From an uncultured Acidobacteriota bacterium (GTDB taxonomy: Bacteria; Acidobacteriota; Terriglobia; Terriglobales; Acidobacteriaceae), in contig CAILAC010000012.1 in NCBI GenBank assembly GCA_903832055.1, positions 84,991-148,990 of the forward strand: a stretch of 64,000 bases of DNA. Reading direction: 5' to 3'. Numbering within the stretch: position 1 is the stretch's first letter; every line of letters begins with the position of its first letter. A model generated the notes under the pieces. It made no database searches. It was not told the origin of the DNA and worked only from the letters and a program-made list of their open reading frames with translations. This document shows, piece by piece, positions 4,034 through 35,260 of this stretch. The translations under genes were made by a program, and so were the position numbers.

Positions 4034-4039
4034 CTGGAA

Positions 4040-5850: not shown

Positions 5851-5962
5851 GGGTACTTCCTCTCGTTTTCTCCTTAAGTTCGATGAGGAAGTGCCGGGTT
5901 GAGATGTACGTGCCGCTTGAAAGGGTTTGCATTGGACGCGTACCTGAGATGTTGCGCGGTGG

Positions 5963-6397: not shown

Positions 6398-6479
6398 GCC
6401 CGACCGGCAACTGATGCGGCTGTTGCCGGCCACTGCGGGCGAATTTTCAGAACAATTGATTCTTCTCTTTGGCGCGTCG

Positions 6480-6851
6480 CTATTTCGACGGTGCCGGATC
6501 AGCGGCTGGTGGTGCCGCCGCTGGAGCCGCAGCCTTGAGTTTTGTGAGGGATTCGTCGACGCGCTTTTTGAAGTCAGAGGCATCGTTGTTGACGAGGCCG
6601 CTGAAGGCGGTTTGTATCTGCATTTCGCAGCCTGTGCCGACAGTATTGAGCAGCACCGTATTGAGGCGCTTGCCGGTCAAGTTGCCGCCAATGTTGTAGG
6701 AGGCTGTCATCTCCTCATTGACGATGCTGATGATGCCGTACTTGCCGGAGTTGCGCAAGGTGTCTTTAACGGCGGGCCAAAGCGTTGAGCAGGGTACGCT
6801 ATAGCTATCTTTGTGTGTCTTGGCCAGAGCAGATGCTGTGATGATCAGCAT
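6480..6851 (-). CDS. hypothetical secreted protein or lipoprotein
   Basis: Single clean ORF with an Ala/Pro-rich C-terminal tail. The hydrophobic N-terminus looks shortened when started at ATG 6851; upstream in-frame codons read TKRFAIAAL but contain no canonical start. Confidence 0.45.
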   Translation of the reverse strand: MLIITASALAKTHKDSYSVPCSTLWPAVKDTLRNSGKYGIISIVNEEMTASYNIGGNLTGKRLNTVLLNTVGTGCEMQIQTAFSGLVNNDASDFKKRVDESLTKLKAAAPAAAPPAADPAPSK

Positions 6852-7346
6852 CAGTGCGGCAATGGCAAATCGTTTCGTGTCGTTCTCCCCCTACTTTCCT
6901 TTTTTGTATGAAGCCCAATCTCAGCGAAAACACCCGTCTTGATTTCAAAGAGCCAGCCGGAGCAATTGCGGACGCGCCAACACTATAGCAAAAGTTGAGG
7001 CGCGCTTACGAATGCGGCAGGATCGACGCTGAGAGACGGGCTCGACAAGATCGACGTTGCAGACCGAATGCTGGTTGGCCAGGAAGGCAATCAAGGTAAA
7101 CCGGTTCCGCTGACCAACATAGACGGGCCGAAAGACACAAGCAAAAACTGTCGGACGACTGCCCGGCCATTCAGAATTGGGCAGTTTGTTCATTGTCAGA
7201 CTGCTGACCTCTGACTTCGATGATGAAGGATTCGGTGGAAGTTATCGGCGACCGATTTGGGATGGACTTGGGTTGGGTTGCGCTGAGGGGTGTGTGAAAA
7301 CGGACTGTTTTGCAAGGAAGTTGGACGATTCCTGTATATTTTCGCA

Positions 7347-7793
7347 ATGCGTTTGGCGTCACAGGAGACACGCTCTTATTTTGTAACTGCTTTTACGGCG
7401 GAGCGGCGCAGACTGTTTCAGGTGACTGACAATGCGGAACTGTTTCGACAGACGCTTTTCGACTATCGCGGGCAGGGGCGGTATCTGCTCCATGCGTATG
7501 TCATTATGCCGGATCATTTTCATGCTTTGATTACGCCGGCTTCGGATGTTTCTCTTGAGAAGGCTATGCAGTTCATCAAGGGCGGGTTTTCTTTCCGTCT
7601 GAAGAGCAAGATGGATGTGTGGATGCGTAGTTTCAACGAAAGCCAGGTCTCGACGAAAGAGAAATTTGCAGAGTGTGTGCGGTATATCGAGGAGAATCCG
7701 GTTCGGGCAAGGCTCGTTGATAGGGCGGATGCTTATCCGTTTAGTTCGGCGGCTGGGGCGATGGACGCGATGCCTGCGCATTTCCGGCGTTGA
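7347..7793 (+). CDS. REP-associated tyrosine transposase (RAYT; IS200/IS605-like HUH Y1 family)
   Basis: HUH motif in YVIMPDHFHALITP. Catalytic Tyr motif in CVRYIEENPVRARL. Size is about 148 aa from ATG 7347. GC is about 50% in the stretches I counted, against about 60% in the neighbours. REP-like palindromes follow immediately. Confidence 0.85.
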   Translation: MRLASQETRSYFVTAFTAERRRLFQVTDNAELFRQTLFDYRGQGRYLLHAYVIMPDHFHALITPASDVSLEKAMQFIKGGFSFRLKSKMDVWMRSFNESQVSTKEKFAECVRYIEENPVRARLVDRADAYPFSSAAGAMDAMPAHFRR

Positions 7794-7812
7794 CGTGCGG
7801 GTTTGGGCTGGG

Positions 7813-7888
7813 GCGCAGGTTTTACGGATGATGTTGGTGGTCGGGCGGAGGCGCTGGTTTTACGGATGATGTTGGGGGTCGGGCGGAG
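7813..7888 (+). repeat. 38-bp tandem duplication (2 units, 36/38 identical)
   Basis: Unit 1 (7813-7850) is gcgcaggttttacggatgatgttggtggtcgggcggag. Unit 2 (7851-7888) is gcgctggttttacggatgatgttgggggtcgggcggag. Confidence 0.95.
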
Positions 7889-7948
7889 GGAGCCGGGGCA
7901 TTGATGCCCCGGAATTAGGGCTGAAGTAGAGCGCCTTTAGGCGCGGGC
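7884..7948 (+). repeat. REP-like element, class 1, copy A (two hairpins)
   Basis: Sequence cggagggagCCGGGGCAttgaTGCCCCGGaat...GCGCCtttaGGCGCgggc, with an 8-bp stem at 7893-7912 and a 5-bp stem at 7931-7944. Confidence 0.8.
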
Positions 7949-7971
7949 TCTTCTTTGATTGGCGGCAAAAG

Positions 7972-8038
7972 GCCCGCGGCTAAAGCCGATTCGTTGCGAG
8001 ACATCTATTCAGGGGCATGAATGCCCCTGCTCCCTCCG
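7972..8038 (-). repeat. REP-like element, class 1, copy B (inverted relative to copy A)
   Basis: The reverse complement reads cggagggagCAGGGGCAttcaTGCCCCTGaat...CGGCtttaGCCGcgggc. That is 29/32 and 15/17 identity to the ends of copy A, and the stem differences are compensatory. Confidence 0.8.
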
Positions 8039-23540: not shown

Positions 23541-23594
23541 TAAAAAAATCAGGCCCTGGACGGAGAGCTACTCCGCCCAGGGCTTTTGAGTTTT
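23541..23594. terminator. bidirectional intrinsic terminator between convergent genes
   Basis: Hairpin GCCCTGGaCGGAGagctaCTCCGcCCAGGGC (23553-23583). It is followed by ttttgagtttt on the + strand and by tgattttttta on the - strand. Confidence 0.75.
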
Positions 23595-24957
23595 ATCTTC
23601 CTGCGGTGGATGGCGTGCCGCCTTCGGCAGGTTCCAGGTCGAGGCGGGCGCGTTCGCCATTGATGAGCACGACGCCGGCGTCGATCAACTGCTGGCCGGT
23701 GCAGTCGTAGGCCTCGTAGCGGCGCAGGGCTTCCATGGGAAAGAAGAATTCGACAGACAATGGCGCTGCCACGGGTACGCCGGGCTTTGCGCGTCCGCGT
23801 ACGGTGGTGCTGAAGCTGATGCCGTCAAAACCCTGATCGCCAGGAAAGTAGCCGAGAACGCGGCGAATGAGCGGCGAGATGTGTTCGTCAAATGCCAGGG
23901 CAGCCGCCTTGTAGCGGGAGATGCCCTGCGGTTCTGCGAGTGCCGTGGTCATCGACAGTTCGAGATACACCTGATGACGGAATGGAATGAAGGCAGGCGG
24001 CGCGTAGGTGACGAAGTGCGCTGCCGGCTCGAGTTCCTTGAGCATGTGATTGCTGACGCCTTGAATGGAGGTCTGCAAAACGGCGAGCGCCTGCGGCGAT
24101 GTGTCGCGCGCGGGCGGTGGGGTTGGTGCGGGAGCGACGGGCTGGGCTGTAGACGGCGTGACCGGGGCGGCGGCTACATACTGGGGCCGCGCTGCACTCT
24201 GCTCTGTGGCTGGCGGGACTTGAGTGGCAGGGACTTGAGCGGCTGGGGGGGGCGCGCTCGCGAGCACCGTCGGCGGGGCCTCAGGCTGGCCCGGCTGCTC
24301 TTCGTCGGTAAGCCAGAGGCTCAGCTGATTGGCATTGAGAAAGACTTCGGCGTCGACAATCGCGGCCTGCTCAGCGAGATTGCTCTGCGCGGACATCAGC
24401 CGTTTGGCGGCTGTCTGCGGAAAGTAGACCATCAGGTTTTCTGGCCGCTCGATGGGCATGCCCATGGTTTTGGAGACAACATGATGCGAAACTTCGATTG
24501 CGTATCCCTGCACCGCAGCGTTGTTTTGAAACGCCGGAACTGCAGCCTTGAGGATGGGCAGCACCACAGAGATAAAAGTCTCCTTGGCGCGCTGTTCGCT
24601 GGTGAATTTGTCGGAAGCATAGGCGCCGTAGTAATTGCCTGAGATGGCGAGGACGGTTGCGCCGTTGTAGCGCTCGAAGCGAATCGAGTGCTGGTCTGAG
24701 CGCTTCTGCGCCCTCTCATCGATATCGAGCTTGCGGCTGAAGTAGAACGGGAAGTTGAAGTGATGTGCGGCGATGTTTTGGCCGATCACGTTCAAATCGT
24801 TCATCGAGCGCTGCTGCAATGCGCGAATCTCAGAGTCTTGAATCTCAACTGGAGAAACGACCTGTGCGATAGCAATGGGCGTTGCAAAGCCCATAAGAAT
24901 GATGCCCCAGAATACGAAGCCAGGAATAACTGCCCAGGCAGCCCTACTTATGCGCAT
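23593..24957 (-). CDS. hypothetical secreted two-domain protein with a Pro-rich linker (last gene of the cytochrome operon)
   Basis: Signal or anchor sequence MRISRAAWAVIPGFVFWGIILMGFATPIAIAQ. A central Pro/Ala/Gln-rich linker of about 80 aa. No motif I recognise. The start overlaps the upstream stop by 14 nt. Confidence 0.7.
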   Translation of the reverse strand: MRISRAAWAVIPGFVFWGIILMGFATPIAIAQVVSPVEIQDSEIRALQQRSMNDLNVIGQNIAAHHFNFPFYFSRKLDIDERAQKRSDQHSIRFERYNGATVLAISGNYYGAYASDKFTSEQRAKETFISVVLPILKAAVPAFQNNAAVQGYAIEVSHHVVSKTMGMPIERPENLMVYFPQTAAKRLMSAQSNLAEQAAIVDAEVFLNANQLSLWLTDEEQPGQPEAPPTVLASAPPPAAQVPATQVPPATEQSAARPQYVAAAPVTPSTAQPVAPAPTPPPARDTSPQALAVLQTSIQGVSNHMLKELEPAAHFVTYAPPAFIPFRHQVYLELSMTTALAEPQGISRYKAAALAFDEHISPLIRRVLGYFPGDQGFDGISFSTTVRGRAKPGVPVAAPLSVEFFFPMEALRRYEAYDCTGQQLIDAGVVLINGERARLDLEPAEGGTPSTAGR

Positions 24958-25696
24958 AAACCGTCCCTGCTGGCTGATACGGAGGATCAGCTAAAGCCCG
25001 AGTATAGGCGATGAGCGCCCGCACCTCCGCGAGGCTGAGAGTTTTTTCGTAGGGTGGCATCAATGCGGATCGCTTCAGCGCGGGGCCGCCGTACTGGATG
25101 ATTGCCGTTAGATCCGCGTCACTCATCTTGTTGAGAGTATTGCCGTCGGTGAAAGCGTGCGGCTTGGTTTCGAGGTTGTCGTAGTTGGAGACGCGCTCAG
25201 CGGATGACTCTGGATCGTGGCACCGGGTGCAGTACTTATCCGCGAGAATTGCGCCGAGACGCTGCTGATAGCCGAGAGCCGTCTCGATGACATCGAGCGA
25301 AGCCGGCTTTGCCTTGCCCGGTGTGACCGCGGTGAGCTGGTAGCGCCCGGCGATGCCGCCCAGGGTGACGGCGGTGGTGGCCTGGCCACTGGTGTCAGTA
25401 AGGGCCGCGGCAGGTTCAAAGCTGACGCCTGCGGGGCCTTGAAACTGGACCAGCGCTCCGGGAACGGCAGTGCCCTGCTCGTCATTGACCTGAACGACGA
25501 CCGGGTCTTTGAGCGCTGTGCCAGTGGCGCCGACCTGATGTCCACCACTTGTCTCGACGATGGCGGCTCCGGTGCCGGTGGGTTTGAGAGCTGCGTTGGG
25601 TTGGGTGCCTGACTTACATCCAGCAAGCGCGACGACGGCGAGGAGCGCCAGGCAAGCGGATGATCGCAAGACCTCAGTGTTGACTCGTTTCATCAT
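24944..25696 (-). CDS. lipoprotein with an Ig-like domain and a C-terminal class-I monohaem cytochrome c
   Basis: Lipobox LALAGC. Big-like segment DPVVVQVNDEQGTAVPGALVQF...TDTSGQATTAVTLG. One CXXCH (CTRCH) with a distal MPPY Met. ATGATGA overlap with the upstream gene. Confidence 0.85.
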   Translation of the reverse strand: MMKRVNTEVLRSSACLALLAVVALAGCKSGTQPNAALKPTGTGAAIVETSGGHQVGATGTALKDPVVVQVNDEQGTAVPGALVQFQGPAGVSFEPAAALTDTSGQATTAVTLGGIAGRYQLTAVTPGKAKPASLDVIETALGYQQRLGAILADKYCTRCHDPESSAERVSNYDNLETKPHAFTDGNTLNKMSDADLTAIIQYGGPALKRSALMPPYEKTLSLAEVRALIAYTRALADPPYQPAGTVYAHK

Positions 25697-27759
25697 TGCT
25701 TTGCTCCTTTTCCGCTTGTGCCTTTAAGCGACATGAGGAAGGCCGTCAATGCGCGGGCATCTTCGTCACTCATCTTCTGGTTGGGCTCTGCTGTGCCGGG
25801 GCGCAGCGCTTGCGGATTCTTGAGCCAGGCGTAGGTCCAGGCCGGAGTCAGACGTGAGCCGACCTGCGTCAGGGTGGGTCCGATGTAGCCCTTGTCAGTT
25901 TTGGTATCGACGATGTGGCAGGACTGGCATGCGAATTTGGAGTAGAAGAGTTGCCGCCCTTGCTCCACCACCTGTGGAGGATTGGTGGCTGACGGCGCGG
26001 TGTCGGGGTCGACGGCGGATGTCTGATAGACGGCGAGCATGAAATCCGTAAGTTCCTTGTTGTCGCTGTCAGAGAGGTTGAAGCGGGGCATGCGCCGGAT
26101 GAGCGATGGCCGCAGGGTATTGGGATTCTTGAGGAAATCGGTCAGCCACTGACGCTGAACGCTGCTGCCCTCGTAGGTCAGGTCAGGGGCCATGTCGCCG
26201 CCTCTGCCGTTGATCCGGTGGCAACTGAAGCAGGCGAGCTCGGTCATGAGCTTGCCGGCGTGGCCAGCGGGCTGGTAGTTGGTGTCTTCTGCAGCAGCGA
26301 CGCGCAGCGTGTCAGGAATTGTGCGGCTGCGGCCGGTCTGTGCGAGCAGGGCCGTAGTCAATGCATCGGTCTGCGCATTGGAAAGCGCGAACTGCGGCAT
26401 CTTCACCGCGCCACCGAAGGCACGCGGCTGGCGAATCTTGCTCACGATGTAAGTTGAAACCGTATGCTCCATGCCGGGTAGGAATGCGATCTGCGCAAGC
26501 GGCTTGCTGCCGATGGTGCTGAGATCGGGCGCGAAGTTCTGCGGTGTCTGCACGCCGTTGATCTCGTGGCAGGCGGCGCATCCGCCGTCGATGATAAGTC
26601 GGCGGCCACGGGCAATCTGCTGCGGTGTGGCCGCGGCAAGCTGCACGTTTGCGCCGTAATCTGCATCCGTCTTGCTGTGCAGATAGTCCGCCAGTGTGGC
26701 AATCTGCCGGGGCGTAAATCGGTAGTGCGGCATGGGCGTTGTGGCGTCGTAAATGCGCGGATTATTCAGCCACGCATTGAGCCATTCCGGCTTGACCTTG
26801 TTGCCGATGCGCGTCAGCTCAGGGCCAACGTCGCCACCGACAACATTGCCCGCCGCATTTTGAACTGCGTGGCAGGATGAGCAGAAGGATTGTCCATAAA
26901 GGCTCGCGCCATCAGCAGGATTGGTCGCCGACCCTGCCGAAGCATTCTTGACGCTTGCCGCTGAAGTATCGCCGGGCTGCGGTTTGCTTGAGCTGATAAG
27001 GTAAGCGGAAATATCGCTCGCGTCCTGATCGGTGAGCTTGTAGTTAGGCATCGTGGCAGTAGCCGCGTATGCCTGCGGGTCTTTGAGCCAGCTGTAGATC
27101 CACTCGCGTGTGGTCTTGTCGGCGACATGAACGAGTGACGGCGGATGATCGGTCGGCATCATCTTTGTGCCGTCGGGCCGCGTAACAGCGTGACATCGAA
27201 CGCAGCCGTAGCGCGCCAGCATCGTGCGGCCAAGATTCAACTGCGGAGTGCCGGCCATTGCGTTCTGATGGCATTGACCGCAACCTGCTTCAATATAGCG
27301 CGTGGGCAGGATGGGCGCTTCGCCATCGCGTTCGCTGTGGTGCGCCTCGGAGACGGTGGTGGCTGCCCCCTGACCGCCATGACAGATTACGCAGCCAAAT
27401 CCATCCACCGAATGTGGAATCGCCGGGTGCTTGCGAAATGGCTGCTGATGTTCGTCTGCCAGGCTGGCTTCGCTCAAGCCAAGATGACACGTAGTGCAGC
27501 GATCGACGACGCCCAGCTCGGGCATCCATATCTGGTGGATACCAGGCTCGAAGCGACGGCGCATGGAGACCGCGTCGCCGCGATCGCGAATCAACGATAG
27601 ATACTTGCGCTGATAGCTATGCCACTGGCTGAAGTGCTCCTTGGTGGGTGTGACAGCAAGCGCAAGCAGCAGAACAAGGCTGACAACGCCAAAGGCCCGC
27701 ACCGGATCGCCGAAGAGCGCTTGCCACGCAGAGGAAATGTATTTTCGTATGGATTGCAC
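25693..27759 (-). CDS. membrane-anchored octahaem c-type cytochrome
   Basis: Eight CXXCH motifs: CTTCH, CVICH, CGQCH, CVRCH, CSSCH, CAACH, CFSCH, CQSCH. N-terminal TM helix AFGVVSLVLLLALAV. GTG start at 27759 directly abuts the upstream TAA. Confidence 0.9.
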   Translation of the reverse strand: MQSIRKYISSAWQALFGDPVRAFGVVSLVLLLALAVTPTKEHFSQWHSYQRKYLSLIRDRGDAVSMRRRFEPGIHQIWMPELGVVDRCTTCHLGLSEASLADEHQQPFRKHPAIPHSVDGFGCVICHGGQGAATTVSEAHHSERDGEAPILPTRYIEAGCGQCHQNAMAGTPQLNLGRTMLARYGCVRCHAVTRPDGTKMMPTDHPPSLVHVADKTTREWIYSWLKDPQAYAATATMPNYKLTDQDASDISAYLISSSKPQPGDTSAASVKNASAGSATNPADGASLYGQSFCSSCHAVQNAAGNVVGGDVGPELTRIGNKVKPEWLNAWLNNPRIYDATTPMPHYRFTPRQIATLADYLHSKTDADYGANVQLAAATPQQIARGRRLIIDGGCAACHEINGVQTPQNFAPDLSTIGSKPLAQIAFLPGMEHTVSTYIVSKIRQPRAFGGAVKMPQFALSNAQTDALTTALLAQTGRSRTIPDTLRVAAAEDTNYQPAGHAGKLMTELACFSCHRINGRGGDMAPDLTYEGSSVQRQWLTDFLKNPNTLRPSLIRRMPRFNLSDSDNKELTDFMLAVYQTSAVDPDTAPSATNPPQVVEQGRQLFYSKFACQSCHIVDTKTDKGYIGPTLTQVGSRLTPAWTYAWLKNPQALRPGTAEPNQKMSDEDARALTAFLMSLKGTSGKGAKQ

Positions 27760-28464
27760 TTAACTCCTCCAGGGCAAAACCCAGGACCAGCCGGGGCCGC
27801 GAAACCATGTACCCACAGCAGTGAGCACAATCAATTCAAAGAGAAACCACGTCATGATCCAGTAGGCAAATGGCTTCGAAGCAAGGTAGCGACGCCACCG
27901 CGAAGGTGACTCCAGCGTGCTGTTGGCGCCGATGAACATCGCGATAGCAACAATCACCGTTGGCGCAACCGCAACATAGACATCGAAGAACACTAGAAAC
28001 GCAAGCAATCCAGCTGTTGCAACGTAAAAGATATTCAGGCGCTTTGTGCGGTCTTTTAGAAACAGGCCCTGCGCCTCAATGTTGATGTTGAAGTATGGAA
28101 TGACGATCAACGAGACGATGAGCATCGTCGGCACGAGCACCCCCGCGACAACGGGCGGGAAGTAATGCAGCAGCTCTTGCAGGCCGAGGAAATACCACGG
28201 TGCCTTGGCGGGGTTGGGCGTATGCGTCGGGTCAGCTATGCCTTCGAGAGGTGCATTGAAGAACAGCGAGATGACAACCAGCAGAATCGCCAGCAGCTCA
28301 ATCGCAAGTGCTGCGCGAAAGAGCACGCCGGGATAAGTCTGCATCTGCTCTTCGCGAGCCACCTTGACCTGCGCACTGGTGCGGCGCGTGACAAAGACGA
28401 CTCGTGTCGGAGAGCGCCGCTGGTCTGAGTCAAGACCAGCGATGAAATCTTTTGGAGTGCTCAT
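27760..28464 (-). CDS. cytochrome b C-terminal part (b6f subunit-IV-like, extended)
   Basis: [20 protein letters not shown] aligns with the PEWYF Qo-site segment of subunit IV / cytochrome b. About 5 hydrophobic helices. ATGA overlap with the cytochrome b6-like gene. Confidence 0.85.
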
Positions 28465-29249
28465 TTCGTCTCCTTCGCCGGGAGTGGTGGTGCGGCGGCA
28501 GCCTGTGCCCTGGGCTCAGACTGCTGCACATACAGCCCGCCATCTTTGCGAATACGCCAGAAGTGAATGGCGATGAAAACAATCGCGGTCAGTGGCAGTA
28601 CGACACAGTGCAGTACATAGAAGCGGAGCAATGCGTTTGCGTTAACCTGATTGCCGCCCAGTAACAGGAAGTGAATCTTGCTGCCGACAATCGGCACTGC
28701 GGATGAAATATTCGAGCCAACTGTAATAGCCCAGAATGCCAGCTGGTCCCACGGAAGCAGATAGCCGGTGTAGCTGAGCAATAAAGTAATCAGCAGCAGC
28801 ACAATGCCGATGACCCAGTTGAATTCGCGCGGTGTGCGATAGGCGCCGCGATAGAAGACCTTGAACATGTGCGCAAAGACGAGAAAGACCATCAGCTGCG
28901 CCGACCAGCGATGCAGGTTTCTCAGAAAAAGTCCTGACGAAACAACAAACTGCAGGTCCTTCATGTCGGCGTATGCCTGCGGCACTGAAGGGTGGTAATA
29001 CAGCATGAGCAGAATGCCGGTGACCACGAGGATAAGAAATGTGCCCAGCGTGAGTGTGCCGAGATACCAGGTTGAACTGAAGCTCACCATGCGCTTGCGC
29101 ACTTTGGTTGAGAAGAGGTGAAGGAATACATTCTGCTGAATCGCAAGCGCGCGATGCAGAGTGCTGTTGCCGCTGCCGCTGCGAAAGACTGAGCGCCACA
29201 CGCGGCTGCCGCGAACTTGTTCAATGATTTGATCGGTCTTCGTGGTCAT
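28461..29249 (-). CDS. cytochrome b N-terminal part (b6-type)
   Basis: Haem ligand pairs H-x13-H ([18 protein letters not shown]) and H-x14-H ([25 protein letters not shown]). ATG 29249 lies 2 nt after the Rieske stop; the ORF-track start 29255 is a TTG overlapping it. Confidence 0.9.
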
Positions 29250-29251
29250 GC

Positions 29252-29743
29252 TCAAACCCTCAAGTACTGCAGCGCGGGGACGTTGATGGAGCGATCGACC
29301 ATGAGATTGCCCTCATCGCTGACCCAGACCTTGAGCCATGGCAAGGGCTTGGGCGCGGGGCCTTCAATCTTCTCGCCGGTGCGCTTGAACTTGCTGCCGT
29401 GACAGGGACAGGTGATCATGCCGAGGTCCTGATTCCATGTGGTCAGGCAACCGAGATGGGTGCATATCGCGCCAATTGCGAAGAAGCCCTCTTCTGCGCG
29501 AATGGTGTAGATTCCGGCGTTCACGTCCATGCTCACCAGGCCCACGGGAAAGCTCTCGGGTCTGCCTGCATTGACGATTGACGACGGCTCGTAGAGCACA
29601 TTGGGTGAGAGATAGTTGTATGAGAAAACAGCTGTGCCGGCAGCAGCGATGCCCAGCGATCCCAACCCTACCTTGGTGAAGAACGCTCTTCGGTCGAAGC
29701 TATCGGCCGAGGGTGTCGTTCCTATCTGTTTCAACTCGTGCAT
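29252..29743 (-). CDS. Rieske [2Fe-2S] protein with a twin-arginine signal/anchor
   Basis: Tat motif [20 protein letters not shown]. Cluster boxes CTHLGC and CPCHGS. Confidence 0.93.
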
Positions 29744-29746
29744 GCG

Positions 29747-31729
29747 TTACCTCGCGATCGCGCCGGCTGCGAGCGGTTTCGCGCGCAGAGGGCCGTCGAT
29801 AGATTCAAGAGAAATTAAGCCGGTGGGATCCACTGAAAAAATGTTGTAAGACTCCATCGTGATGGTGCCCGCTGGACAACGCGCTGCGCAGAGGCCGCAG
29901 CGAATGCAACGAGACTCATCCTTGAGCATCGCGGAGCCGGTGATGACACCTAGTTCGTCTGCCTGAATGTCATCCAATTCGACACCGAGCAGGTCGCGTA
30001 CATTGCCTAACTGCGTGGTTGTTTCTTCATCAAATGAAATGCGTTCGAGCGATACGAGTTCGAGGCAGCTCTCGGGGCATACGTCAACGCAGCCACCGCA
30101 GAGAATGCACTCGGTTGCATCTTCTGAATTGCCCTCAAAGACAGTGTTGACCCAGCAGTGGAGGCAGCGTTGCGCCTCTGCCATTGCAGACTCAGCATCG
30201 AATCCAATCTCCACTTCAGTCACGCCGGTGCGGCGCTTGAGTGGCTGCATTGGGATGGCTGGGCGTGTCTTGTCGAGCAAGTCGAGGGGCATGTGATAAC
30301 GCTCCATGACTTCGACTTCGATAACTGGATCGGGGTGTTTGGTGCCGCGCAGATACTCATCAATCCCGACGGCTGCGCGCTTGCCATCAGCCACGCTGTC
30401 GATGATGAGTCGCGGGCCAAAGACGCAGTCGCCACCAGCGAAGACTCCAGGTGCTGAAGTCATCAACGTCTGCGGATTCACAGCGACCAATCCGCGCGGG
30501 GAAACTCCAACTCCGTCTTCAGGAGTCAGGAAAGTTAGATTCGCTGCCTGACCGATGGCCATGATGATGGTGTCGCATTCGAGCAGGGTTTCGCTGTTCT
30601 CAAAGAAGGTCGGATTGAAGCGCCGGTTCTCATCGAAAACTGATTTGGTCTTGAGCACTTCGAGCCCGATGGCGTGCCCGTCTTTACCGACAATCTGCTT
30701 GGGACCAAAGCCGGCATGGATGATGATGCCTTCTTCGACTGCCTCATCAATCTCTTCGAGTGATGCGGGCATTTCAGCGCGATTTTCGAGGCAGACAAGG
30801 TGTACTTCCTGGGCACCGAGTCGCAGCGCAGAGAGCGAAACGTCCATCATTTCGCGCGCTGCGACAGCATCCACGCTGTCCTGCGTTGGTTCAAAGTTTT
30901 CGACTCCCGCTGCATGCTGCTTGAGCACTTCGCGAGCTGCTGAGCGGGCCACATCCATGGCGACATTGCCGCCGCCGATGACCAGTACCTTCTTGCCGAT
31001 GGTGAAGCGATAACCCAGATTCACGTTGAGCAGGAAGTCTATGCCCTTGTAAACACCATCGAGATTGACGCCAGGGATGGTGAGGTCGCGGCTGCGATGC
31101 GCGCCAACTGCAATGAGCACTGCATCGAATTTGCTGCGCAGATCGGCGATGGTAAAGTCGCGTCCGGCAGCACTGTTAAGTTTCAGCGTGATGTCGCCGG
31201 TGGCAAGGATTTCGCGGACCTGCGCCTCGACAACATCGCGAGGCAGGCGATACTCAGGCAGGCCCAGATAGAGCATGCCGCCTGCGACTTGTGAAGCCTC
31301 AAACAGAGTGACGGAGTAGCCCATCAGGCCCAGATCATGCGCTGCGGAAAGTCCTACCGGGCCTGCTCCAACAATGGCCACGCTGAGATTGAGTTTGGGT
31401 TGCAGACGGCCGGCGTTTACGTCAATTGGATTGCGCGACTCAGGGCCATGCTGCTCAGTGAGGAATCGCTTGAGTGCGCGGATGGCGATAGGCTTGTCAA
31501 TCTCACCGCGACGGCACGCAGTTTCGCAGGGATGTGCGCAGACGCGGCCGCAGATGCTGGCGAGCGGATTTGGTTCGCGCGCATAGCGATATGCGTCTTC
31601 GAAGTTACCCTCGGCGATCAGTTCTACATAGCGGCCCGCGTTGGTATGTGCGGGACAGGCCGTCATGCAGGGAAAGTTGGTGTTCAACCATTCCTGATCA
31701 ACCTTCTTGTTGATAAAGCGTTGCTGCAT
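29747..31729 (-). CDS. GltD-like NAD(P)H-dependent FAD/FeS oxidoreductase fused to a 2x[4Fe-4S] ferredoxin domain
   Basis: N-terminal Cys clusters (CMTACPAH..., CGRVCAHPCETACRRG). FAD fold VAIVGAGPVGLSAAHDL. NAD(P)H fold VLVIGGGNVAMDVARSA. C-terminal CILCGGCVDVCP and CIRCGLCAARCP. No signal peptide. The stop lies 3 nt before the Rieske ATG. Confidence 0.88.
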   Translation of the reverse strand: MQQRFINKKVDQEWLNTNFPCMTACPAHTNAGRYVELIAEGNFEDAYRYAREPNPLASICGRVCAHPCETACRRGEIDKPIAIRALKRFLTEQHGPESRNPIDVNAGRLQPKLNLSVAIVGAGPVGLSAAHDLGLMGYSVTLFEASQVAGGMLYLGLPEYRLPRDVVEAQVREILATGDITLKLNSAAGRDFTIADLRSKFDAVLIAVGAHRSRDLTIPGVNLDGVYKGIDFLLNVNLGYRFTIGKKVLVIGGGNVAMDVARSAAREVLKQHAAGVENFEPTQDSVDAVAAREMMDVSLSALRLGAQEVHLVCLENRAEMPASLEEIDEAVEEGIIIHAGFGPKQIVGKDGHAIGLEVLKTKSVFDENRRFNPTFFENSETLLECDTIIMAIGQAANLTFLTPEDGVGVSPRGLVAVNPQTLMTSAPGVFAGGDCVFGPRLIIDSVADGKRAAVGIDEYLRGTKHPDPVIEVEVMERYHMPLDLLDKTRPAIPMQPLKRRTGVTEVEIGFDAESAMAEAQRCLHCWVNTVFEGNSEDATECILCGGCVDVCPESCLELVSLERISFDEETTTQLGNVRDLLGVELDDIQADELGVITGSAMLKDESRCIRCGLCAARCPAGTITMESYNIFSVDPTGLISLESIDGPLRAKPLAAGAIAR

Positions 31730-31811: not shown

Positions 31812-32393
31812 TTACTTTGAAAGCGTGAAGTCTGATGCAGTGTCGCCTGCAACCTTTACAGGATTCGACTTGGTCTTTGCACCCTCATGCCATGCGGTGA
31901 CGGTGTATGCGCCATCAGGAACGTTGTCGATCTTGTAGGCACCCGACTTATCAGTCTCAGCAAAGTAAGGCGTGGGCGAAACGATGATGTAAGCGGCCAT
32001 CTCAGGATGTACATTGCAGAGCAATGGCACAGCACCGGGGTTATCGAACTTGAAGCTCTGCTTCTGCCCCTGAGGCCATGTGCCGAGGTTGTGGCCAAGC
32101 TTCTTGTTACCGCTGATCGAAATCCAGAAGACGTTGTGCGCTACGCTGTCGCTGTTGAGGAATTCGACGGTCGTGCCTTGCTCAATGGCCACAAGGTGAG
32201 GCGTGAACATCAGGCCTTTTTGATCGATGACGATGTGCTGGGTGGGGGCGGGAAATGTCTTGCCGGGGATAGCTTCGACATAGACGACGGAGACGCCTGA
32301 GACGCCTGATACCTTGCCGTGGATGGTCCCTGCAACCGCTGCTGTGCTGAGTGCGGTAATCGCGATAAGTGTTGCCAGTGTGATGCGTTTCAT
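31812..32393 (-). CDS. secreted cupredoxin (amicyanin/plastocyanin-like) with a C-terminal CarboxypepD_reg-like beta-sandwich
   Basis: Signal peptide MKRITLATLIAITALSTAAVA. Candidate type-1 Cu ligands are His in SVAHNVFW and C-x2-H-x2-M in LLCNVHPEM. The tail YFAETDKSGAYKIDNVPDGAYTVTAWHEG is typical of CarboxypepD_reg-like folds. Confidence 0.8.
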   Translation of the reverse strand: MKRITLATLIAITALSTAAVAGTIHGKVSGVSGVSVVYVEAIPGKTFPAPTQHIVIDQKGLMFTPHLVAIEQGTTVEFLNSDSVAHNVFWISISGNKKLGHNLGTWPQGQKQSFKFDNPGAVPLLCNVHPEMAAYIIVSPTPYFAETDKSGAYKIDNVPDGAYTVTAWHEGAKTKSNPVKVAGDTASDFTLSK

Positions 32394-32433: not shown

Positions 32434-34017
32434 CTAGTAGACGAACTCCAGCCCGGTGACGAGTACGTTTGTTCGGAAGGGATTGCCAATAGCTGCACCC
32501 GTGGATGGGTTGTAGACAATCTGCTGGGGCTGAATCTGGTACTCAACCGACGCCTTGATGTTGGCGTGGATGAGGAACTGCTCGCCGAGCGTGAAGCGAT
32601 TGCGCGTTGCCCGGTATGGCGAGAAGAAGGAAGACGACGGTGGAGCCGTTGGGTCGTACATAAGGAAGTTGACCCGATCAGCAGTTGACTTGACCTGATC
32701 CCAGCGCACGATGCTCATGGCCCAGGGCAGCGCAAGATAGTCAGCCTCAAGGAAACTGCCGCTGAATGTAACTGCAGCCTCAGGCTTGAAGCCGGTGATG
32801 GCACCACTTTCGACAGTGGATTCAGGCACAAGGTTGTGATCGTGGGCTGCCATGTACACACCAAACAAATTGAATGTTCGGTAGTTAAAGTTGACGTCGC
32901 CGCCGATGCGGTAGAACGGCTCACGCGCGGTGAGAACGACTGGGGTCACACCGTCGGCCAGGACACCAGACACAGTCTGTACGCTGCGACCGTAGAAGCC
33001 AAAGGTTCCTAGCGCCAGGAAGGTGTGATCACGCGGACCGGAAGCACCAGCAGCCTGAACGCCGTTGCGGCTTTCCGGATTTTTTTCAAGGTTGAAGCGA
33101 TAAATGAATCGGCCGTAGATGTCTTTGTAGTTGGAGTCGGAACTGAATGCGACTCCATTACCCGGCTTGACCGTGGGCGCTGTAGGAGCTGCACCGCTGG
33201 TGTTTTGATTCATGACCGCGAGAGAGTAGTGGTAGCCCTGGTAGGAGTGCCCTCCGCTGATTTCAAGCCCGTGTGCAGCACTCGAAATCGACGCCCCGTT
33301 GTTGACAAATTCAGGCCGTCCAATGCCATTCTGGACGCCGATATTCGCCTCGCCGAAGAGGTCCCAACCGCTGAGGTTCCAGGAGCGTGCCTGACTGAAC
33401 GGGATATCCAGTTCAAACTGACCAAAGCGCAAGTTCACTGAGTCTGTGGGCATTTTGAGGAATCGGCTGACGTCGTGAAATTTGAGGTACGCATCGCCCA
33501 ACGCGCCGTTGGCATTCGCACCGGCGACGCTGATGTCGTCGTCAACCCAGAAGGAGATACCGGTTCCGAAATTGCCCGCCGTAAAGATACTGAAAAGTCC
33601 TGGTTGAAAGTCAGATTTGGGGACAAATGTACCAATAGTTCCGGCAGGCAGAACCTGGTTGAAGTTGTTCCGGCTGGAGCCAACCTGCTGGTAGAACTGG
33701 TTGTAGCGCAAGCCAATCGGCGGCAGGCCGGGAATGGTGCCGGGATATACCGTGTGCGGAAATAACTCGGCCTGTGCCGGTGCTCCAAGGAGAATTGGCG
33801 GAGCCTTGAGAAAGGACTCGTCATCCTTGGGAAACTTGAAGCCTGCATCCTTGAATGCCTTGCCGAAGTCATTGAGCTTTGGGAAGTCCAGGTGGCAGGT
33901 GGTGCAGGATGTACCGTACTGACGGGAAAACGCGGGAATCGCTCGACTCGTTTGCGGAAGCAAAAGAACCGTCAGTGCAGCGACAAAAAGGATTCGGGAA
34001 AGCCATTTTCGATTCAT
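32434..34017 (-). CDS. outer-membrane beta-barrel-like protein with one N-terminal CXXCH (fused cytochrome-porin architecture, Cyc2-like)
   Basis: ATG 34017 (MNRKWLSRILFVAALTVLLLPQTSRA signal peptide). CTTCH lies 11 residues into the mature protein (IPAFSRQYGTSCTTCHLDFPKLNDFGKAFK). About 480 aa of alternating amphipathic strands, rich in Gly/Tyr/Phe/Asn, follow. The C-terminus ...VTGLEFVY ends in an aromatic residue, as in OMPs. Confidence 0.8.
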   Translation of the reverse strand: MNRKWLSRILFVAALTVLLLPQTSRAIPAFSRQYGTSCTTCHLDFPKLNDFGKAFKDAGFKFPKDDESFLKAPPILLGAPAQAELFPHTVYPGTIPGLPPIGLRYNQFYQQVGSSRNNFNQVLPAGTIGTFVPKSDFQPGLFSIFTAGNFGTGISFWVDDDISVAGANANGALGDAYLKFHDVSRFLKMPTDSVNLRFGQFELDIPFSQARSWNLSGWDLFGEANIGVQNGIGRPEFVNNGASISSAAHGLEISGGHSYQGYHYSLAVMNQNTSGAAPTAPTVKPGNGVAFSSDSNYKDIYGRFIYRFNLEKNPESRNGVQAAGASGPRDHTFLALGTFGFYGRSVQTVSGVLADGVTPVVLTAREPFYRIGGDVNFNYRTFNLFGVYMAAHDHNLVPESTVESGAITGFKPEAAVTFSGSFLEADYLALPWAMSIVRWDQVKSTADRVNFLMYDPTAPPSSSFFSPYRATRNRFTLGEQFLIHANIKASVEYQIQPQQIVYNPSTGAAIGNPFRTNVLVTGLEFVY

Positions 34018-34432: not shown

Positions 34433-34762
34433 TTAATCCTTCATCTGTACCAGTAGCATGCGCACTGCGGTCTTTGCCGAGATTCCGTGCGACAGCATCG
34501 GTGGCATGTAGACAAAGGAGCCGGGTTGAGCTTCGACAATATCCGCCCCCAGCTGCACCTGGGCCAGCCCCTCGATAAAGTAGAGAACTGCCGGCGTAGG
34601 GGCCGAATGTGCTGACAGCTCCTCGCCGGCCGCGAAGCCAAACAGGGTAATGTTCACCTTCTGATCCTTGTGCAACACGCGGCTGAGAATGCCCTTCTCG
34701 GGAAGGGTGAACTCCTGTTGCAGATTTGCAAAATAGGCATAATCCATTTGCTTCTCTCTCAT
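34433..34762 (-). CDS. cupin domain protein
   Basis: Cupin_2-like pattern GEELSAHSAPTPAVLYFIEGLAQVQLG....PGSFVYMPPMLSHGI. ATG 34747 is an alternative start. Confidence 0.7.
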   Translation of the reverse strand: MREKQMDYAYFANLQQEFTLPEKGILSRVLHKDQKVNITLFGFAAGEELSAHSAPTPAVLYFIEGLAQVQLGADIVEAQPGSFVYMPPMLSHGISAKTAVRMLLVQMKD

Positions 34763-35185: not shown

Positions 35186-35260
35186 TGGTGGCCAGAGACG
35201 GGATCGAACCGCCGACGCCGGCCTTTTCAGGGCCGCGCTCTACCACTGAGCTATCTGGCC
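35186..35260 (-). tRNA. tRNA-Phe (anticodon GAA), CCA encoded
   Basis: The reverse complement is GGCCAGATAGCTCAGTGGTAGAGCGCGGCCCTGAAAAGGCCGGCGTCGGCGGTTCGATCCCGTCTCTGGCCACCA. It folds as a cloverleaf: 7-bp acceptor stem, anticodon loop CUGAAAA, GGTTCGATCC T-arm. Confidence 0.95.

What the first reader, a model, noticed from the sequence alone, without database searches (positions are those of the whole stretch)
32434..34017. Cyc2-like fused monohaem cytochrome-porin candidate at the head of the operon
Seen in sequence: a signal peptide, a single CTTCH only 11 residues into the mature chain (IPAFSRQYGTSCTTCHLDFPKLNDFGKAFKDAGFKF), then about 480 aa of alternating amphipathic, Gly/aromatic-rich segments ending in ...VTGLEFVY. 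A terminal aromatic residue is a typical OMP beta-signal. Established knowledge: 'signal peptide + one N-terminal CXXCH + porin barrel of roughly 430-570 aa' is the defining architecture of the Cyc2 iron oxidases. Inference: this protein could place a haem in or at an outer-membrane pore. Whether it is a true Cyc2 homolog or an independent family with the same layout cannot be decided by eye.
Basis: partly seen in the sequence, partly recalled or inferred. Interest (0 to 1): 0.8.

Follow-up and report, generated by a model that had tools for sequence, protein, structure and literature searches.

The report
Cyc2-type haem-porin heading a respiratory operon
This gene from a soil acidobacterium encodes a true relative of the Cyc2 iron oxidases: one haem fused to a 16-strand outer-membrane pore. 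It heads a conserved nine-gene operon that links it, through a blue-copper protein, to an unusual NAD(P)-linked Rieske/cytochrome b complex.

Summary
Window 32434-34017 (-) encodes 527 aa with a Sec signal peptide and a single CTTCH (the only two Cys). AlphaFold gives a confident 16-strand barrel (pLDDT 86) that matches OmpF/OprP-type porins.

- It carries the published Cyc2 signature with identical spacing (AIPAFSRQY-GTS-CTTCH-LDF-PKL) and one A->S change.
- A profile of 60 independent signature-bearing proteins, including one from Mariprofundus, aligns end to end (E=2e-64; barrel alone 2e-34).
- Direct barrel similarity to the Mariprofundus and Acidithiobacillus proteins is not significant. 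It is reached only through intermediate sequences, and those two also fail to match each other.

The new part is the context. The gene heads a conserved nine-gene operon: Cyc2-like, type-1 copper protein, NfnB/GltD-like flavoprotein, Rieske, split cytochrome b, octahaem c, lipoprotein cytochrome c, and an unknown protein. The Rieske subunit's best PDB matches are those of the anammox NAD(P)-reductase Rieske/cytochrome b complexes.

Most likely it is an outer-membrane electron gate for soluble iron, wired to this chain. The direction of flow, haem loading, location and substrate are untested.

The parts
32434..34017 (-). Cyc2-family fused monohaem cytochrome c / 16-strand porin (527 aa), first gene of the operon
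   Evidence: ORF and translation. More than 2600 homologs, all unnamed and without a Pfam domain. End-to-end profile match to signature-defined Cyc2-type proteins. Confident AlphaFold barrel model matching porins.
33940..34017 (-). Sec signal peptide (residues 1-26, predicted cleavage SRA|IP)
   Evidence: n-, h- and c-regions read from the sequence. Helix at residues 3-19 and low model confidence at 21-31. SignalP was not run.
33874..33942 (-). Cyc2 signature block, AIPAFSRQY-GTS-CTTCH-LDF-PKL (residues 26-48). The haem-binding CTTCH lies at 33892-33906.
   Evidence: Compared with the published consensus. P28, R32, Y34, T36, C38, C41, H42 and L48 are invariant in 116 sequences.
32437..33717 (-). 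16-strand beta-barrel (residues 101-527) ending in the beta-signal-like ...GLEFVY
   Evidence: DSSP strands of the AlphaFold model. Foldseek matches to Omp-Pst1, OmpU, OmpF, PorB, Omp32 and OprP at E=7e-12 to 7e-9. Barrel-only profile match E=2.3e-34.
31812..32393 (-). Periplasmic type-1 copper protein (cupredoxin) with a C-terminal CarboxypepD_reg/Ig-like domain (193 aa), the likely partner of the haem-porin
   Evidence: Pfam Copper-bind and CarboxypepD_reg. Copper ligands H86 and C126-x2-H129-x2-M132 are present, as is a signal peptide. PDB sequence matches to amicyanin and plastocyanin. A homolog lies near a Cyc2-type gene in 32 of about 120 genome loci.
29747..31729 (-). NfnB/GltD-like NAD(P)-binding FAD and Fe-S flavoprotein (660 aa)
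   Evidence: Pfam Pyr_redox_2, Fer4_20 and Fer4. NCBIfam 'NAD(P)-binding protein' E=1e-136. Best PDB matches are NfnABC 9bov/9bp5, the same homolog reported for Kuste4570.
29252..29743 (-). Rieske [2Fe-2S] subunit (163 aa; CTHLGC ... CPCHGS)
   Evidence: Pfam Rieske. Cluster-binding motifs. Best PDB matches are 9rk4 (E=1.5e-24) and 9rk3 (E=5.9e-19), the Kuenenia Kuste4569 and Kustd1480 proteins.
27760..29255 (-). Split cytochrome b: b6-like N-terminal part (28461-29255) and subunit-IV-like C-terminal part (27760-28464)
   Evidence: Pfam Cytochrome_B E=4.8e-46 and Cytochrom_B_C E=1.5e-5.
25693..27759 (-). Membrane-anchored octahaem cytochrome c (688 aa)
   Evidence: Eight CXXCH motifs and an N-terminal hydrophobic segment. 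Pfam Cytochrom_C (5 stretches) and Cytochrome_C7.
24944..25696 (-). Lipoprotein with an Ig-like (Big_1) domain and one cytochrome c domain (250 aa; lipobox LAGC, CTRCH)
   Evidence: Pfam; sequence features.
23593..24957 (-). Conserved 454-aa secreted or anchored protein of unknown family, last gene of the operon
   Evidence: No Pfam or NCBIfam hit. Conserved at this position in L001, L123, L124 and L125. Follows the Cyc2-like and cupredoxin genes directly in L088.
23553..23583 (-). Intrinsic-terminator-like hairpin (13 pairs, 10 G-C, followed by a T run) closing the nine-gene row

Best explanation
The gene encodes a member of the Cyc2 family. It is a Sec-exported protein in which a short N-terminal monohaem c-type cytochrome head (about 75 residues) is fused to a 16-strand outer-membrane porin.

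Proposed mechanism (inferred): the haem sits in or at the pore and exchanges single electrons with a small soluble redox species that can enter the pore, most probably iron. On the periplasmic side it exchanges electrons with the type-1 copper protein encoded next to it. That carrier is shared with the c-haem (high-potential) side of the co-encoded Rieske/cytochrome b complex. This complex is of the anammox type and carries a cytoplasmic NAD(P)-binding flavoprotein.

I commit to the direction set by family precedent: Fe(II) -> haem-porin -> cupredoxin -> a terminal oxidase encoded elsewhere. In this reading the Rieske/cytochrome b complex feeds the same cupredoxin pool from quinol.

Shown here: family membership, fold, operon structure and its conservation.
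Inferred: haem attachment, outer-membrane location, iron as substrate, and the direction of flow. I put inward against outward flow at only about 55:45.
For: Family membership:
- Cyc2 signature with exact spacing.
- End-to-end profile match E=2.2e-64, barrel alone E=2.3e-34, no hits for shuffled controls.
- Barrel-only profile comparison: target subfamily against distant FARKY relatives, probability 100%, E=3e-63. Those relatives against the Mariprofundus protein, 95.8%, E=7e-9; against the Acidithiobacillus group, 91.5%, E=9e-7.
- Identity to the Mariprofundus (25%) and Acidithiobacillus (24%) proteins is at or slightly above the identity between those two (22%). It is slightly above the inter-cluster range Keffer et al. 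report.

Fold: pLDDT 86.2, 16 strands, matching 16-strand porins and OprP.

Operon:
- Nine same-strand genes with short or overlapping junctions and a strong terminator after the last gene.
- The same gene order, with different flanking genes, in relatives at 60% and 42% identity (where the octahaem gene is called in fragments and the last two genes are not evident).
- The same order also in Terriglobia, Thermoanaerobaculia and Eisenbacteria genomes.

Cupredoxin link:
- Intact type-1 copper site.
- A homolog lies near a Cyc2-type gene in 32 of about 120 loci from many phyla.
- In one acidobacterial subfamily a small monohaem cytochrome c occupies the same slot, as expected for an interchangeable periplasmic shuttle.

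Rieske/cytochrome b type.

Iron and direction:
- The three biochemically tested family members are reported as Fe(II) oxidases.
- Acidithiobacillus passes electrons from Cyc2 to a cupredoxin, rusticyanin.
- The 42% subfamily occurs in Ca. Acidiferrum, proposed as the dominant iron cyclers of acidic tropical soils.
Against: - No experiment supports any step.
- Direct barrel similarity to the Mariprofundus and Acidithiobacillus proteins is not significant (E=0.0057 and 0.044). The link is transitive.
- The literal published pattern PXFAR is not met (FSR).
- The Mariprofundus and Acidithiobacillus sequences used are MAG genes, not the proteins that were assayed.
- The published authors themselves regard the function of divergent family members as uncertain.
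- No terminal oxidase is in the operon.
- The homologous anammox complexes are proposed to use their c-haem side as an electron outlet, which fits outward flow better.
- By my own rough estimate, not a tool result: at the pH 4-5 typical of Terriglobales soils the Fe(III)/Fe(II) couple may lie above the potential of an ordinary amicyanin-like cupredoxin. That would make inward flow unfavourable unless the potentials are raised.
- No Met or His other than H42 is conserved across the family, so the distal haem ligand is unknown.
Confidence: 0.5

Rival explanations
1. Same protein and same wiring, but electrons flow outwards. The Rieske/cytochrome b complex oxidises quinol, or takes electrons from NAD(P)H through its flavoprotein. 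It passes the high-potential electron through the octahaem cytochrome, the lipoprotein cytochrome and the cupredoxin to the haem-porin. The haem-porin then reduces a soluble high-potential oxidant such as Fe(III) or Mn(III) complexes in acidic soil. In this reading the Cyc2-type protein is a terminal reductase. It may serve as the sink that lets the complex bifurcate quinol electrons to NAD(P)+.
For: - The operon encodes a complete path from a cytoplasmic NAD(P)-binding flavoprotein to an outer-membrane haem and contains no oxidase.
- The closest characterised complexes (Kuenenia Kuste4569-74 and Kustd1480-85) are proposed to send the Rieske-side electron to a terminal acceptor while reducing NAD(P)+. 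The window's Rieske protein matches their Rieske subunits best.
- The Rieske protein has the CPCHGS serine that the Kuenenia paper associates with potentials above +200 mV.
- The same operon occurs in a Thermoanaerobaculia MAG, and a Cyc2-type gene lies next to Rieske and cytochrome b genes in a Desulfobaccales MAG. Members of those lineages are anaerobes (from my own knowledge).
Against: - Every tested Cyc2-family protein has been assayed as an Fe(II) oxidase. No family member is known to act as a reductase.
- A 16-strand pore may not admit chelated Fe(III).
- It is unclear why an organoheterotroph would need NAD(P)H made from quinol.
- The bifurcation scheme is itself still a hypothesis for the anammox complexes.
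Confidence: 0.32
2. It is an independent family that has converged on the Cyc2 layout (signal peptide, one CXXCH, barrel) without common ancestry.
For: - No Pfam, NCBIfam or PDB sequence hit.
- Direct barrel-only comparison with the Mariprofundus and Acidithiobacillus proteins is not significant.
Against: - The Mariprofundus and Acidithiobacillus Cyc2-type proteins also have no Pfam hit, and their barrels do not match each other either (E=0.22).
- The 23-residue signature has the same spacing.
- The full-length profile match is E=2e-64, and E=2e-34 without the head.
- There are transitive barrel links at 92-100% probability.
Confidence: 0.03
3. It is a Cyc2-family protein whose role is not respiratory iron redox. 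It might act on another small redox-active solute (Mn, Cu, organic radicals, humic quinones, reactive oxygen or nitrogen species), or in redox sensing or detoxification at the outer membrane.
For: - The family is spread over many phyla not known to oxidise iron, including Nitrospira, Gemmatimonadota, Ignavibacteriota, Myxococcota and Planctomycetota.
- The published authors allow for additional functions.
- The distal ligand is not a conserved Met or His. That would be compatible with an open or unusual haem site.
Against: - Tight and widely conserved coupling to electron carriers and a Rieske/cytochrome b complex points to bulk electron flow rather than sensing.
- Iron is the only substrate shown for the family.
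Confidence: 0.12

Closest known systems
Cyc2 fused cytochrome-porins: Cyc2(PV-1) of Mariprofundus ferrooxydans, Cyc2 of Acidithiobacillus ferrooxidans, Cyt572 of Leptospirillum (McAllister 2020; Keffer 2021, PMC8406198)
   Same: - Signal peptide, a single N-terminal CXXCH, the AXPXF-x-R[Q/K][T/Y] block with the same spacing, and PXL four residues after the haem motif.
- About 430-570 aa, a 16-strand porin, and an aromatic C-terminus.
- No Pfam model for any of them.
- First gene of an electron-transfer operon.
- A cupredoxin partner, as in Acidithiobacillus.

   Different: - FSR instead of FAR, as in most of the acidobacterial relatives fetched. The published screen, which required PXFAR, would have dropped this clade (inference).
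- Only 24-25% identical to the Mariprofundus and Acidithiobacillus proteins, with barrel homology detectable only through intermediates.
- The hosts are soil Terriglobia, not known iron oxidisers.
- The operon partners are a Rieske/cytochrome b complex with an NAD(P) flavoprotein, rather than cyc1 and cox genes.
NAD(P)-oxidoreductase-containing Rieske/cytochrome b complexes of the anammox bacterium Kuenenia stuttgartiensis (Kuste4569-4574, Kustd1480-1485; Kartal 2013; PMC12954380)
   Same: - One cluster holding Rieske, split cytochrome b6/subunit IV, a multihaem cytochrome c, and an NfnB/GltD-like FAD and Fe-S NAD(P) subunit.
- The window's Rieske protein matches 9rk4 and 9rk3 best.
- The flavoprotein matches NfnABC (9bp5/9bov), as reported for Kuste4570.

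   Different: - The host is an acidobacterium with no anammoxosome.
- The partner on the c-haem side is a cupredoxin plus an outer-membrane haem-porin, not an HAO-like octahaem enzyme.
- Only the Rieske and flavoprotein subunits were compared with solved structures.
rus and petI operons of Acidithiobacillus ferrooxidans (Cyc2 -> rusticyanin -> Cyc1/aa3 oxidase, or -> CycA1 -> bc1 -> NADH)
   Same: An outer-membrane Cyc2, a periplasmic cupredoxin and a Rieske/cytochrome b complex form one functional network. The cyc2 gene is first in its operon.
   Different: - Here all three are in a single operon without an oxidase.
- The cupredoxin has an amicyanin-like C-x2-H-x2-M loop and an extra Ig-like domain.
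- NAD(P) coupling is built into the Rieske/cytochrome b complex instead of going through NDH-1.
Porin-cytochrome conduits MtrCAB, MtoAB and PioAB
   Same: All move electrons across the outer membrane with haem held in a beta-barrel.
   Different: Those are 26-strand barrels that sheathe a separate decahaem protein. This is a 16-strand barrel fused to a single haem.
General and phosphate-selective 16-strand porins (OmpF, Omp-Pst1, OmpU, PorB, Omp32, OprP)
   Same: The barrel fold: Foldseek E=7e-12 to 7e-9, TM-score normalised to the target 0.56-0.64.
   Different: There is no detectable sequence similarity. Those porins have no haem head.

Membership tests
Cyc2 fused cytochrome-porin family (Keffer et al. 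2021) | N-terminal Sec signal peptide | tested here: met
   The n-, h- and c-regions with SRA|IP were read from the sequence. The model has a helix at residues 3-19 followed by a disordered cleavage region. No dedicated predictor was run.
Cyc2 fused cytochrome-porin family (Keffer et al. 2021) | Exactly one CXXCH, close to the mature N-terminus | tested here: met
   CTTCH at residues 38-42 holds the only two Cys. It is invariant in 116 homologs.
Cyc2 fused cytochrome-porin family (Keffer et al. 2021) | AXPXFAR[Q/K][T/Y] consensus, with PXFAR five residues upstream of CXXCH | tested here: inconclusive
   The target reads AIPAFSRQY, so 8 of 9 consensus positions match and the spacing is identical. 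The literal FAR is FSR. Sister sequences L119 and L088 (56% and 51% identity by tblastn) and all 39 distant representatives inspected carry FAR or FSR at the same place.
Cyc2 fused cytochrome-porin family (Keffer et al. 2021) | PXL motif four residues downstream of CXXCH | tested here: met
   CTTCH-LDF-PKL. P46 is 99% and L48 100% conserved.
Cyc2 fused cytochrome-porin family (Keffer et al. 2021) | At least 365 aa, with a C-terminal beta-barrel porin of about 16 strands (OprO/OprP-like) | tested here: met
   527 aa. The AlphaFold model has pLDDT 86.2, pTM 0.83 and 16 long strands. Foldseek matches 16-strand porins, and OprP 2o4v gives the highest TM-score normalised to the query, 0.46.
Cyc2 fused cytochrome-porin family (Keffer et al. 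2021) | Sequence homology to accepted family members, including those of known iron oxidisers | tested here: met
   - A profile of 60 signature-bearing genome proteins, including one from Mariprofundus, scores E=2.2e-64 end to end.
- phmmer against the Mariprofundus ORF gives E=2.6e-10, mostly from the head.
- The Acidithiobacillus-type profile matches the head only (54 bits).
- Barrel homology to both is transitive only.
- E-values use an arbitrary database size of 1e6.
Cyc2 fused cytochrome-porin family (Keffer et al. 2021) | Score above threshold with the FeGenie Cyc2 cluster 1, 2 or 3 HMMs, and placement in the published tree | not testable with these tools
Cyc2 fused cytochrome-porin family (Keffer et al. 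2021) | Covalent haem, outer-membrane location, Fe(II) oxidation activity | not testable with these tools
   These need experiments.
NAD(P)-oxidoreductase-containing Rieske/cytochrome b complex (anammox R/b-2 and R/b-3 type); applies to the downstream genes | One cluster encoding Rieske, split cytochrome b/subunit IV, a multihaem cytochrome c, and an NfnB/GltD-like FAD and Fe-S NAD(P) subunit | tested here: met
   Pfam and NCBIfam assignments. Eight CXXCH motifs in the cytochrome. The Rieske protein's best PDB matches are Kuste4569 and Kustd1480. The flavoprotein's best matches are NfnABC.
MtrB/PioB/MtoB porin-cytochrome conduits | A barrel of about 26 strands that sheathes a separate decahaem cytochrome | tested here: not met
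   16 strands with a fused single haem. No MtrB-family hit in Pfam or NCBIfam.

The most novel reading that the evidence does not exclude
In abundant soil Terriglobia, a Cyc2-type haem-porin works in the opposite sense to the textbook iron oxidases. It would be the outer-membrane outlet of a self-contained, nine-gene trans-envelope chain. In that chain an anammox-type Rieske/cytochrome b complex sends its high-potential electron through a cupredoxin to soluble Fe(III) or Mn(III) outside the cell. The low-potential branch is coupled to the cytoplasmic NAD(P)(H) pool. If so, 'Cyc2' marker-gene counts in soils would partly be reporting metal reduction rather than iron oxidation. It would also supply the first physiological partner for NAD(P)-linked Rieske/cytochrome b complexes outside anammox bacteria.
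Probability: 0.3. Interest if true: 0.8.

Novelty: new variant of a known kind. Interest (0 to 1): 0.58.

Why it matters
Cyc2 is widely used as the marker gene for microbial Fe(II) oxidation, for example in FeGenie and in soil metagenome surveys.

This clade is large. The first search gave at least 2647 homologs, almost all from soil and peat metagenomes. It occurs in dominant soil Acidobacteriota, carries no annotation, and deviates at one position of the signature that a published screen required.

Its fixed genetic coupling to a cupredoxin and to an NAD(P)-linked Rieske/cytochrome b complex gives two poorly understood components a concrete, testable partner:
- Cyc2 homologs in organisms that are not known iron oxidisers.
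- The anammox-type Rieske/cytochrome b complexes, whose function is still a hypothesis.

If either direction of flow is confirmed, it would add a compact route for iron redox cycling by some of the most abundant bacteria in acidic soils.

Tried and rejected
- Pfam, NCBIfam and PDB sequence searches of the target gave nothing. This is uninformative, because the Mariprofundus and Acidithiobacillus Cyc2-type ORFs also have no Pfam hit.
- tblastn against PLSDB plasmids found no match.
- The first AlphaFold run, with 28 close homologs, failed (pLDDT 38.5). Only the alignment of 116 sequences, including relatives at 23-35% identity, gave a usable model.
It was replaced by a degenerate DNA pattern for the Cyc2 signature.
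- The listing of cluster members gave no taxonomy for the distant representatives.
- A full-text search for the motif strings returned noise.
- The Keffer supplements hold no sequences, so the assayed Cyc2(PV-1), A. ferrooxidans Cyc2 and Cyt572 proteins could not be compared directly. MAG genes from Mariprofundus (L005) and Acidithiobacillus (L023) were compared as stand-ins. The Leptospirillum ORF (L122) is cut at 130 aa and was recorded only in passing.
- Direct barrel-only profile comparison of the target subfamily with L005 and with the Acidithiobacillus group was not significant.
- An 'uphill' scheme, Fe(II) -> reversed Rieske/cytochrome b complex -> NAD(P)H, was considered and set aside. 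Running this complex in reverse would consume NAD(P)H rather than make it. This is my own reasoning, not a tool result.
- No paper describing this operon was found. The library searched is incomplete.
Full report
1. THE OBSERVATION

Window 32434-34017 on the minus strand is an ORF of 527 aa that starts at an ATG preceded by GAGG. The sequence begins MNRKWLSRILFVAALTVLLLPQTSRA|IPAFSRQYGTSCTTCHLDFPKLNDFG... This has the n-, h- and c-regions of a Sec signal peptide.

The protein has one CXXCH, at residues 38-42, and these are its only two cysteines. The mature chain is rich in Gly (10%) and aromatic residues (13.8%) and ends in ...GLEFVY. The window holds one copy.

The haem motif is not a chance occurrence. 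C38, C41 and H42 are invariant in 116 homologs down to 23% identity. Each of 39 distant full-length representatives has exactly one CXXCH at the same place.

2. THE FAMILY

The protein has no Pfam, NCBIfam or PDB sequence match. It does have a very large unnamed family:
- at least 2647 proteins with E<=1e-3 in the 5.8-billion-protein collection. None listed has a Pfam domain, and the names given are 'hypothetical protein' or nothing. They come mostly from soil and peat metagenomes and Terriglobales MAGs;
- 2218 representatives at the 50% clustering level.

Keffer et al. 2021 (PMC8406198) define the Cyc2 family by these features:
- a signal peptide;
- a single CXXCH;
- the motif AXPXFAR[Q/K][T/Y], which they call unique to Cyc2, with PXFAR five residues before the CXXCH;
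- PXL four residues after the CXXCH;
- at least 365 aa, with a 16-strand OprO/OprP-like porin.

The target reads AIPAFSRQY-GTS-CTTCH-LDF-PKL. Every element and every spacing is present, with one A->S change. Its distant relatives (23-35% identity) read AIPAFARKY.TSC.TCH..FPKLN.FG.AF..NGY.

3. LINK TO PROTEINS FROM KNOWN IRON OXIDISERS

Of these, 119 yielded a translated match, and each match sits on an ORF with a single CXXCH. The 90 complete ORFs of at least 365 aa mostly end in an aromatic residue. The rest are cut by contig ends or are shorter ORFs, including two of only 91-93 aa.

The hosts include a Mariprofundus sp. (L005), a zetaproteobacterium (L049), an Acidithiobacillus sp. (L023) and a Leptospirillum sp. 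(L122, cut). They also include Ca. Nitrospira defluvii, Ralstonia, Ignavibacterium and many Acidobacteriota. In L023 the ORF is followed by a dihaem c4 cytochrome, as in cyc2-cyc1.

Profile tests gave these results:
- A profile of 60 of these proteins aligns to the target from end to end. The three closest relatives of the target and the Acidithiobacillus-type group were left out. The result was E=2.2e-64, 224 bits, HMM positions 1-411 of 412.
- The target without its cytochrome head still scores E=2.3e-34. Twenty shuffled copies gave no hit (database size set arbitrarily to 1e6).
- The Acidithiobacillus-type profile matches only the head (54 bits).

Barrel-only profile-profile comparisons:

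| Comparison | Probability | E-value |
|---|---|---|
| Target subfamily vs distant FARKY relatives | 100% | 3e-63 |
| Distant FARKY relatives vs Mariprofundus barrel | 95.8% | 7e-9 |
| Distant FARKY relatives vs Acidithiobacillus group | 91.5% | 9e-7 |
| Target subfamily vs Mariprofundus barrel | not significant | 0.0057 |
| Target subfamily vs Acidithiobacillus group | not significant | 0.044 |
| Acidithiobacillus group vs Mariprofundus barrel | not significant | 0.22 |

Global identity of the target to L005 is 25% and to L023 24%. L005 and L023 are 22% identical to each other. Keffer et al. report about 17-23% between clusters.

I conclude that the protein is a divergent member of the Cyc2 family. 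Its head is directly similar to those of iron-oxidiser proteins. Its barrel is homologous to theirs only through intermediate sequences.

4. THE FOLD

A shallow alignment gave a useless model (pLDDT 38.5). With 116 diverse sequences AlphaFold2 gave pLDDT 86.2 and pTM 0.83. The model has 16 long strands between residues 101 and 526, and a small helical and short-strand head before them.

Foldseek against the PDB returns 16-strand porins: Omp-Pst1 at E=7e-12, then OmpU, OmpF, PorB and Omp32. OprP (2o4v) has the highest TM-score normalised to the query, 0.46. 2o4v is one of the two templates reported for Cyc2(PV-1).

5. THE SURROUNDINGS

The gene is the first of nine on the same strand with short or overlapping junctions. 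A strong hairpin followed by a T run at 23583-23553 closes the row. The genes, in order:
1. The Cyc2-like protein.
2. A 193-aa secreted cupredoxin with an intact type-1 copper site (H86, C126-x2-H129-x2-M132) and a C-terminal Ig-like domain.
3. A 660-aa NfnB/GltD-like NAD(P), FAD and Fe-S protein.
4. A Rieske protein (CTHLGC/CPCHGS).
5. A b6-type cytochrome b.
6. A subunit-IV-like protein.
7. A membrane-anchored octahaem cytochrome c.
8. A lipoprotein with an Ig-like domain and one haem.
9. A 454-aa protein with no known family.

The Rieske protein's two best PDB matches are 9rk4 (E=1.5e-24) and 9rk3 (E=5.9e-19). [quoted passage not shown] The flavoprotein's best matches are the NfnABC entries 9bov and 9bp5. 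9bp5 is the homolog that paper found for Kuste4570.

Those complexes are proposed, but not proven, to bifurcate quinol electrons. One electron would go to NAD(P)+ and the other through the multihaem cytochromes to a favourable acceptor.

6. CONSERVATION OF THE CONTEXT

The same gene order, with unrelated flanking genes, is found around relatives at 100%, 60% and 42% identity. Around a 67% relative the first six genes are the same. There the octahaem gene is called in pieces, and the last two genes are not evident. The 42% subfamily includes proteins from Ca. Acidiferrum (Terriglobia).

Across the 120 signature loci, which are only 8 kb each, so these counts are lower bounds:
- A homolog of the window's cupredoxin lies near the Cyc2-type gene in 32 loci. 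The hosts include Acidobacteriota, Nitrospira defluvii, other Nitrospirales, Gemmatimonadales, Chloroflexi, Myxococcota, Anaeromyxobacter, Planctomycetota and others.
- The run Cyc2-like, cupredoxin, flavoprotein, Rieske, cytochrome b recurs in a Terriglobia MAG (L119), a Thermoanaerobaculia MAG (L093) and an Eisenbacteria MAG (L011).
- In a Terracidiphilus-type subfamily (L020; also L043 and L044) the slot between the Cyc2-type gene and the flavoprotein is not filled by a cupredoxin homolog. In L020 it holds a small monohaem cytochrome c. This is what one expects of an interchangeable periplasmic shuttle.
- In L088 the Cyc2-like gene, the cupredoxin and the 454-aa protein occur together without the Rieske/cytochrome b genes.

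7. MECHANISM

Shown here: a Cyc2-family haem-porin, conserved co-linearity with a periplasmic one-electron carrier, and, in Terriglobia and some other lineages, conserved co-linearity with an NAD(P)-linked Rieske/cytochrome b complex.

Inferred: the haem in or at the pore exchanges electrons with a small soluble species, most probably iron, and with the cupredoxin. The cupredoxin is also the carrier served by the c-haem side of the Rieske/cytochrome b complex.

The direction of flow is open.
- For inward flow (Fe(II) oxidation): the three assayed family members are reported as Fe(II) oxidases, and Acidithiobacillus passes electrons from Cyc2 to rusticyanin. The Rieske/cytochrome b complex and the haem-porin would then be two feeders of one cupredoxin pool, which is drained by an oxidase encoded elsewhere.
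- For outward flow: the operon has no oxidase, it encodes a complete NAD(P)-to-outer-membrane path, and in the anammox scheme the c-haem side is an outlet. Acidobacteriia are reported as iron reducers in acidic soils.

I set aside a reversed, 'uphill to NAD(P)H' use of this complex. Running it backwards would consume NAD(P)H. This is my own reasoning, not a tool result.

I commit to Fe(II) oxidation at roughly 55:45 over outward flow. Overall confidence in the full statement is 0.5.

8. COMPARISON WITH WHAT IS KNOWN, AND NOVELTY

The protein belongs to a known family. Two things appear not to have been described.

First, this is a very large acidobacterial clade in which the signature reads FSR. 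Of 335 motif-bearing relatives fetched, 247 have FSR, though this sample is biased by how it was collected. The published tree required PXFAR, so by inference this clade would have been filtered out.

Second, a Cyc2-type gene is coupled in a conserved operon with a cupredoxin and an anammox-type NAD(P)-linked Rieske/cytochrome b complex. Searches for Cyc2 together with Acidobacteria, Rieske, cupredoxin or synteny found no description of this. A 2026 preprint on extracellular electron transfer in peat Acidobacteriota deals with multihaem porin clusters. It mentions neither Rieske proteins nor cupredoxins. One paper notes that Leptospirillum Cyc572 is connected to a dense cluster of homologs from Acidobacteria and Nitrospira, so acidobacterial relatives as such are not new.

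I rate this a new variant of a known kind, of moderate to good interest.

9. LIMITS

- Nothing was tested experimentally.
- The FeGenie HMMs were not available.
- The proteins that were actually assayed were not available as sequences.
- E-values from my own HMMER runs use an arbitrary database size.
- The 8-kb loci undercount gene linkage.
- The literature library is incomplete.

Noticed in passing
window 23593-24957 (-); also L088 1780-3063: The last gene of the operon encodes a 454-aa protein with an N-terminal hydrophobic segment and a Pro/Ala-rich linker. It has no Pfam or NCBIfam hit. It is conserved at this position in relatives. In L088 it follows the Cyc2-like and cupredoxin genes directly, with no Rieske/cytochrome b genes between them. 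It may therefore belong to the outer-membrane/periplasmic module.
   Followed up: partly
L020 3981-4508 (-), and upstream 5835-7996 (-); L005 3057-5817 (+): In a Terracidiphilus-type Cyc2 subfamily a small monohaem cytochrome c (CAKCH) occupies the cupredoxin slot ahead of the flavoprotein-Rieske-cytochrome b genes. A histidine kinase and a sigma-54-type response regulator lie immediately upstream. The same kind of regulatory pair lies upstream of the Mariprofundus cyc2-type gene in L005.
   Followed up: partly
target residues, alignment A3: Across 116 family members no Met or His other than the CXXCH histidine is conserved. The next best columns are H331 at 66% and H392 at 62%. Y34 (100%), R32 (100%) and K71 (96%) are conserved near the haem motif. 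The distal haem ligand is therefore not the usual Met or His, or it varies within the family.
   Followed up: no
L034 and L096 (Alphaproteobacteria / Roseiarcus MAGs): Two complete ORFs of only 91-93 aa carry the full Cyc2 head signature (..PQFARQTGKSCNFCH...PRLN..G.AFKN.GF.FPE) with no barrel attached. The cytochrome head therefore seems to exist also as a stand-alone small protein.
   Followed up: no
L063 (Desulfobaccales MAG) 2074-4688 (+), 6444-7994 (-): An Acidithiobacillus-type (FARQT) Cyc2-family gene is followed on the same strand by Rieske and cytochrome b genes. A GltD-like gene lies nearby on the opposite strand. This is a possible second, independent association of the family with this kind of complex, in a lineage of anaerobes.
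   Followed up: no
window 35189-35260 (-): A tRNA gene is the only Rfam match in the window at gathering threshold. A small cupin gene (34433-34762, -) lies between it and the operon, about 415 nt upstream of the Cyc2-like start.
   Followed up: no
window 20885-23155 (+): A 756-aa secreted protein with PKD and PA14 domains converges on the end of the operon. It is also present in the identical metagenome contigs. No link to the operon is evident.
   Followed up: no
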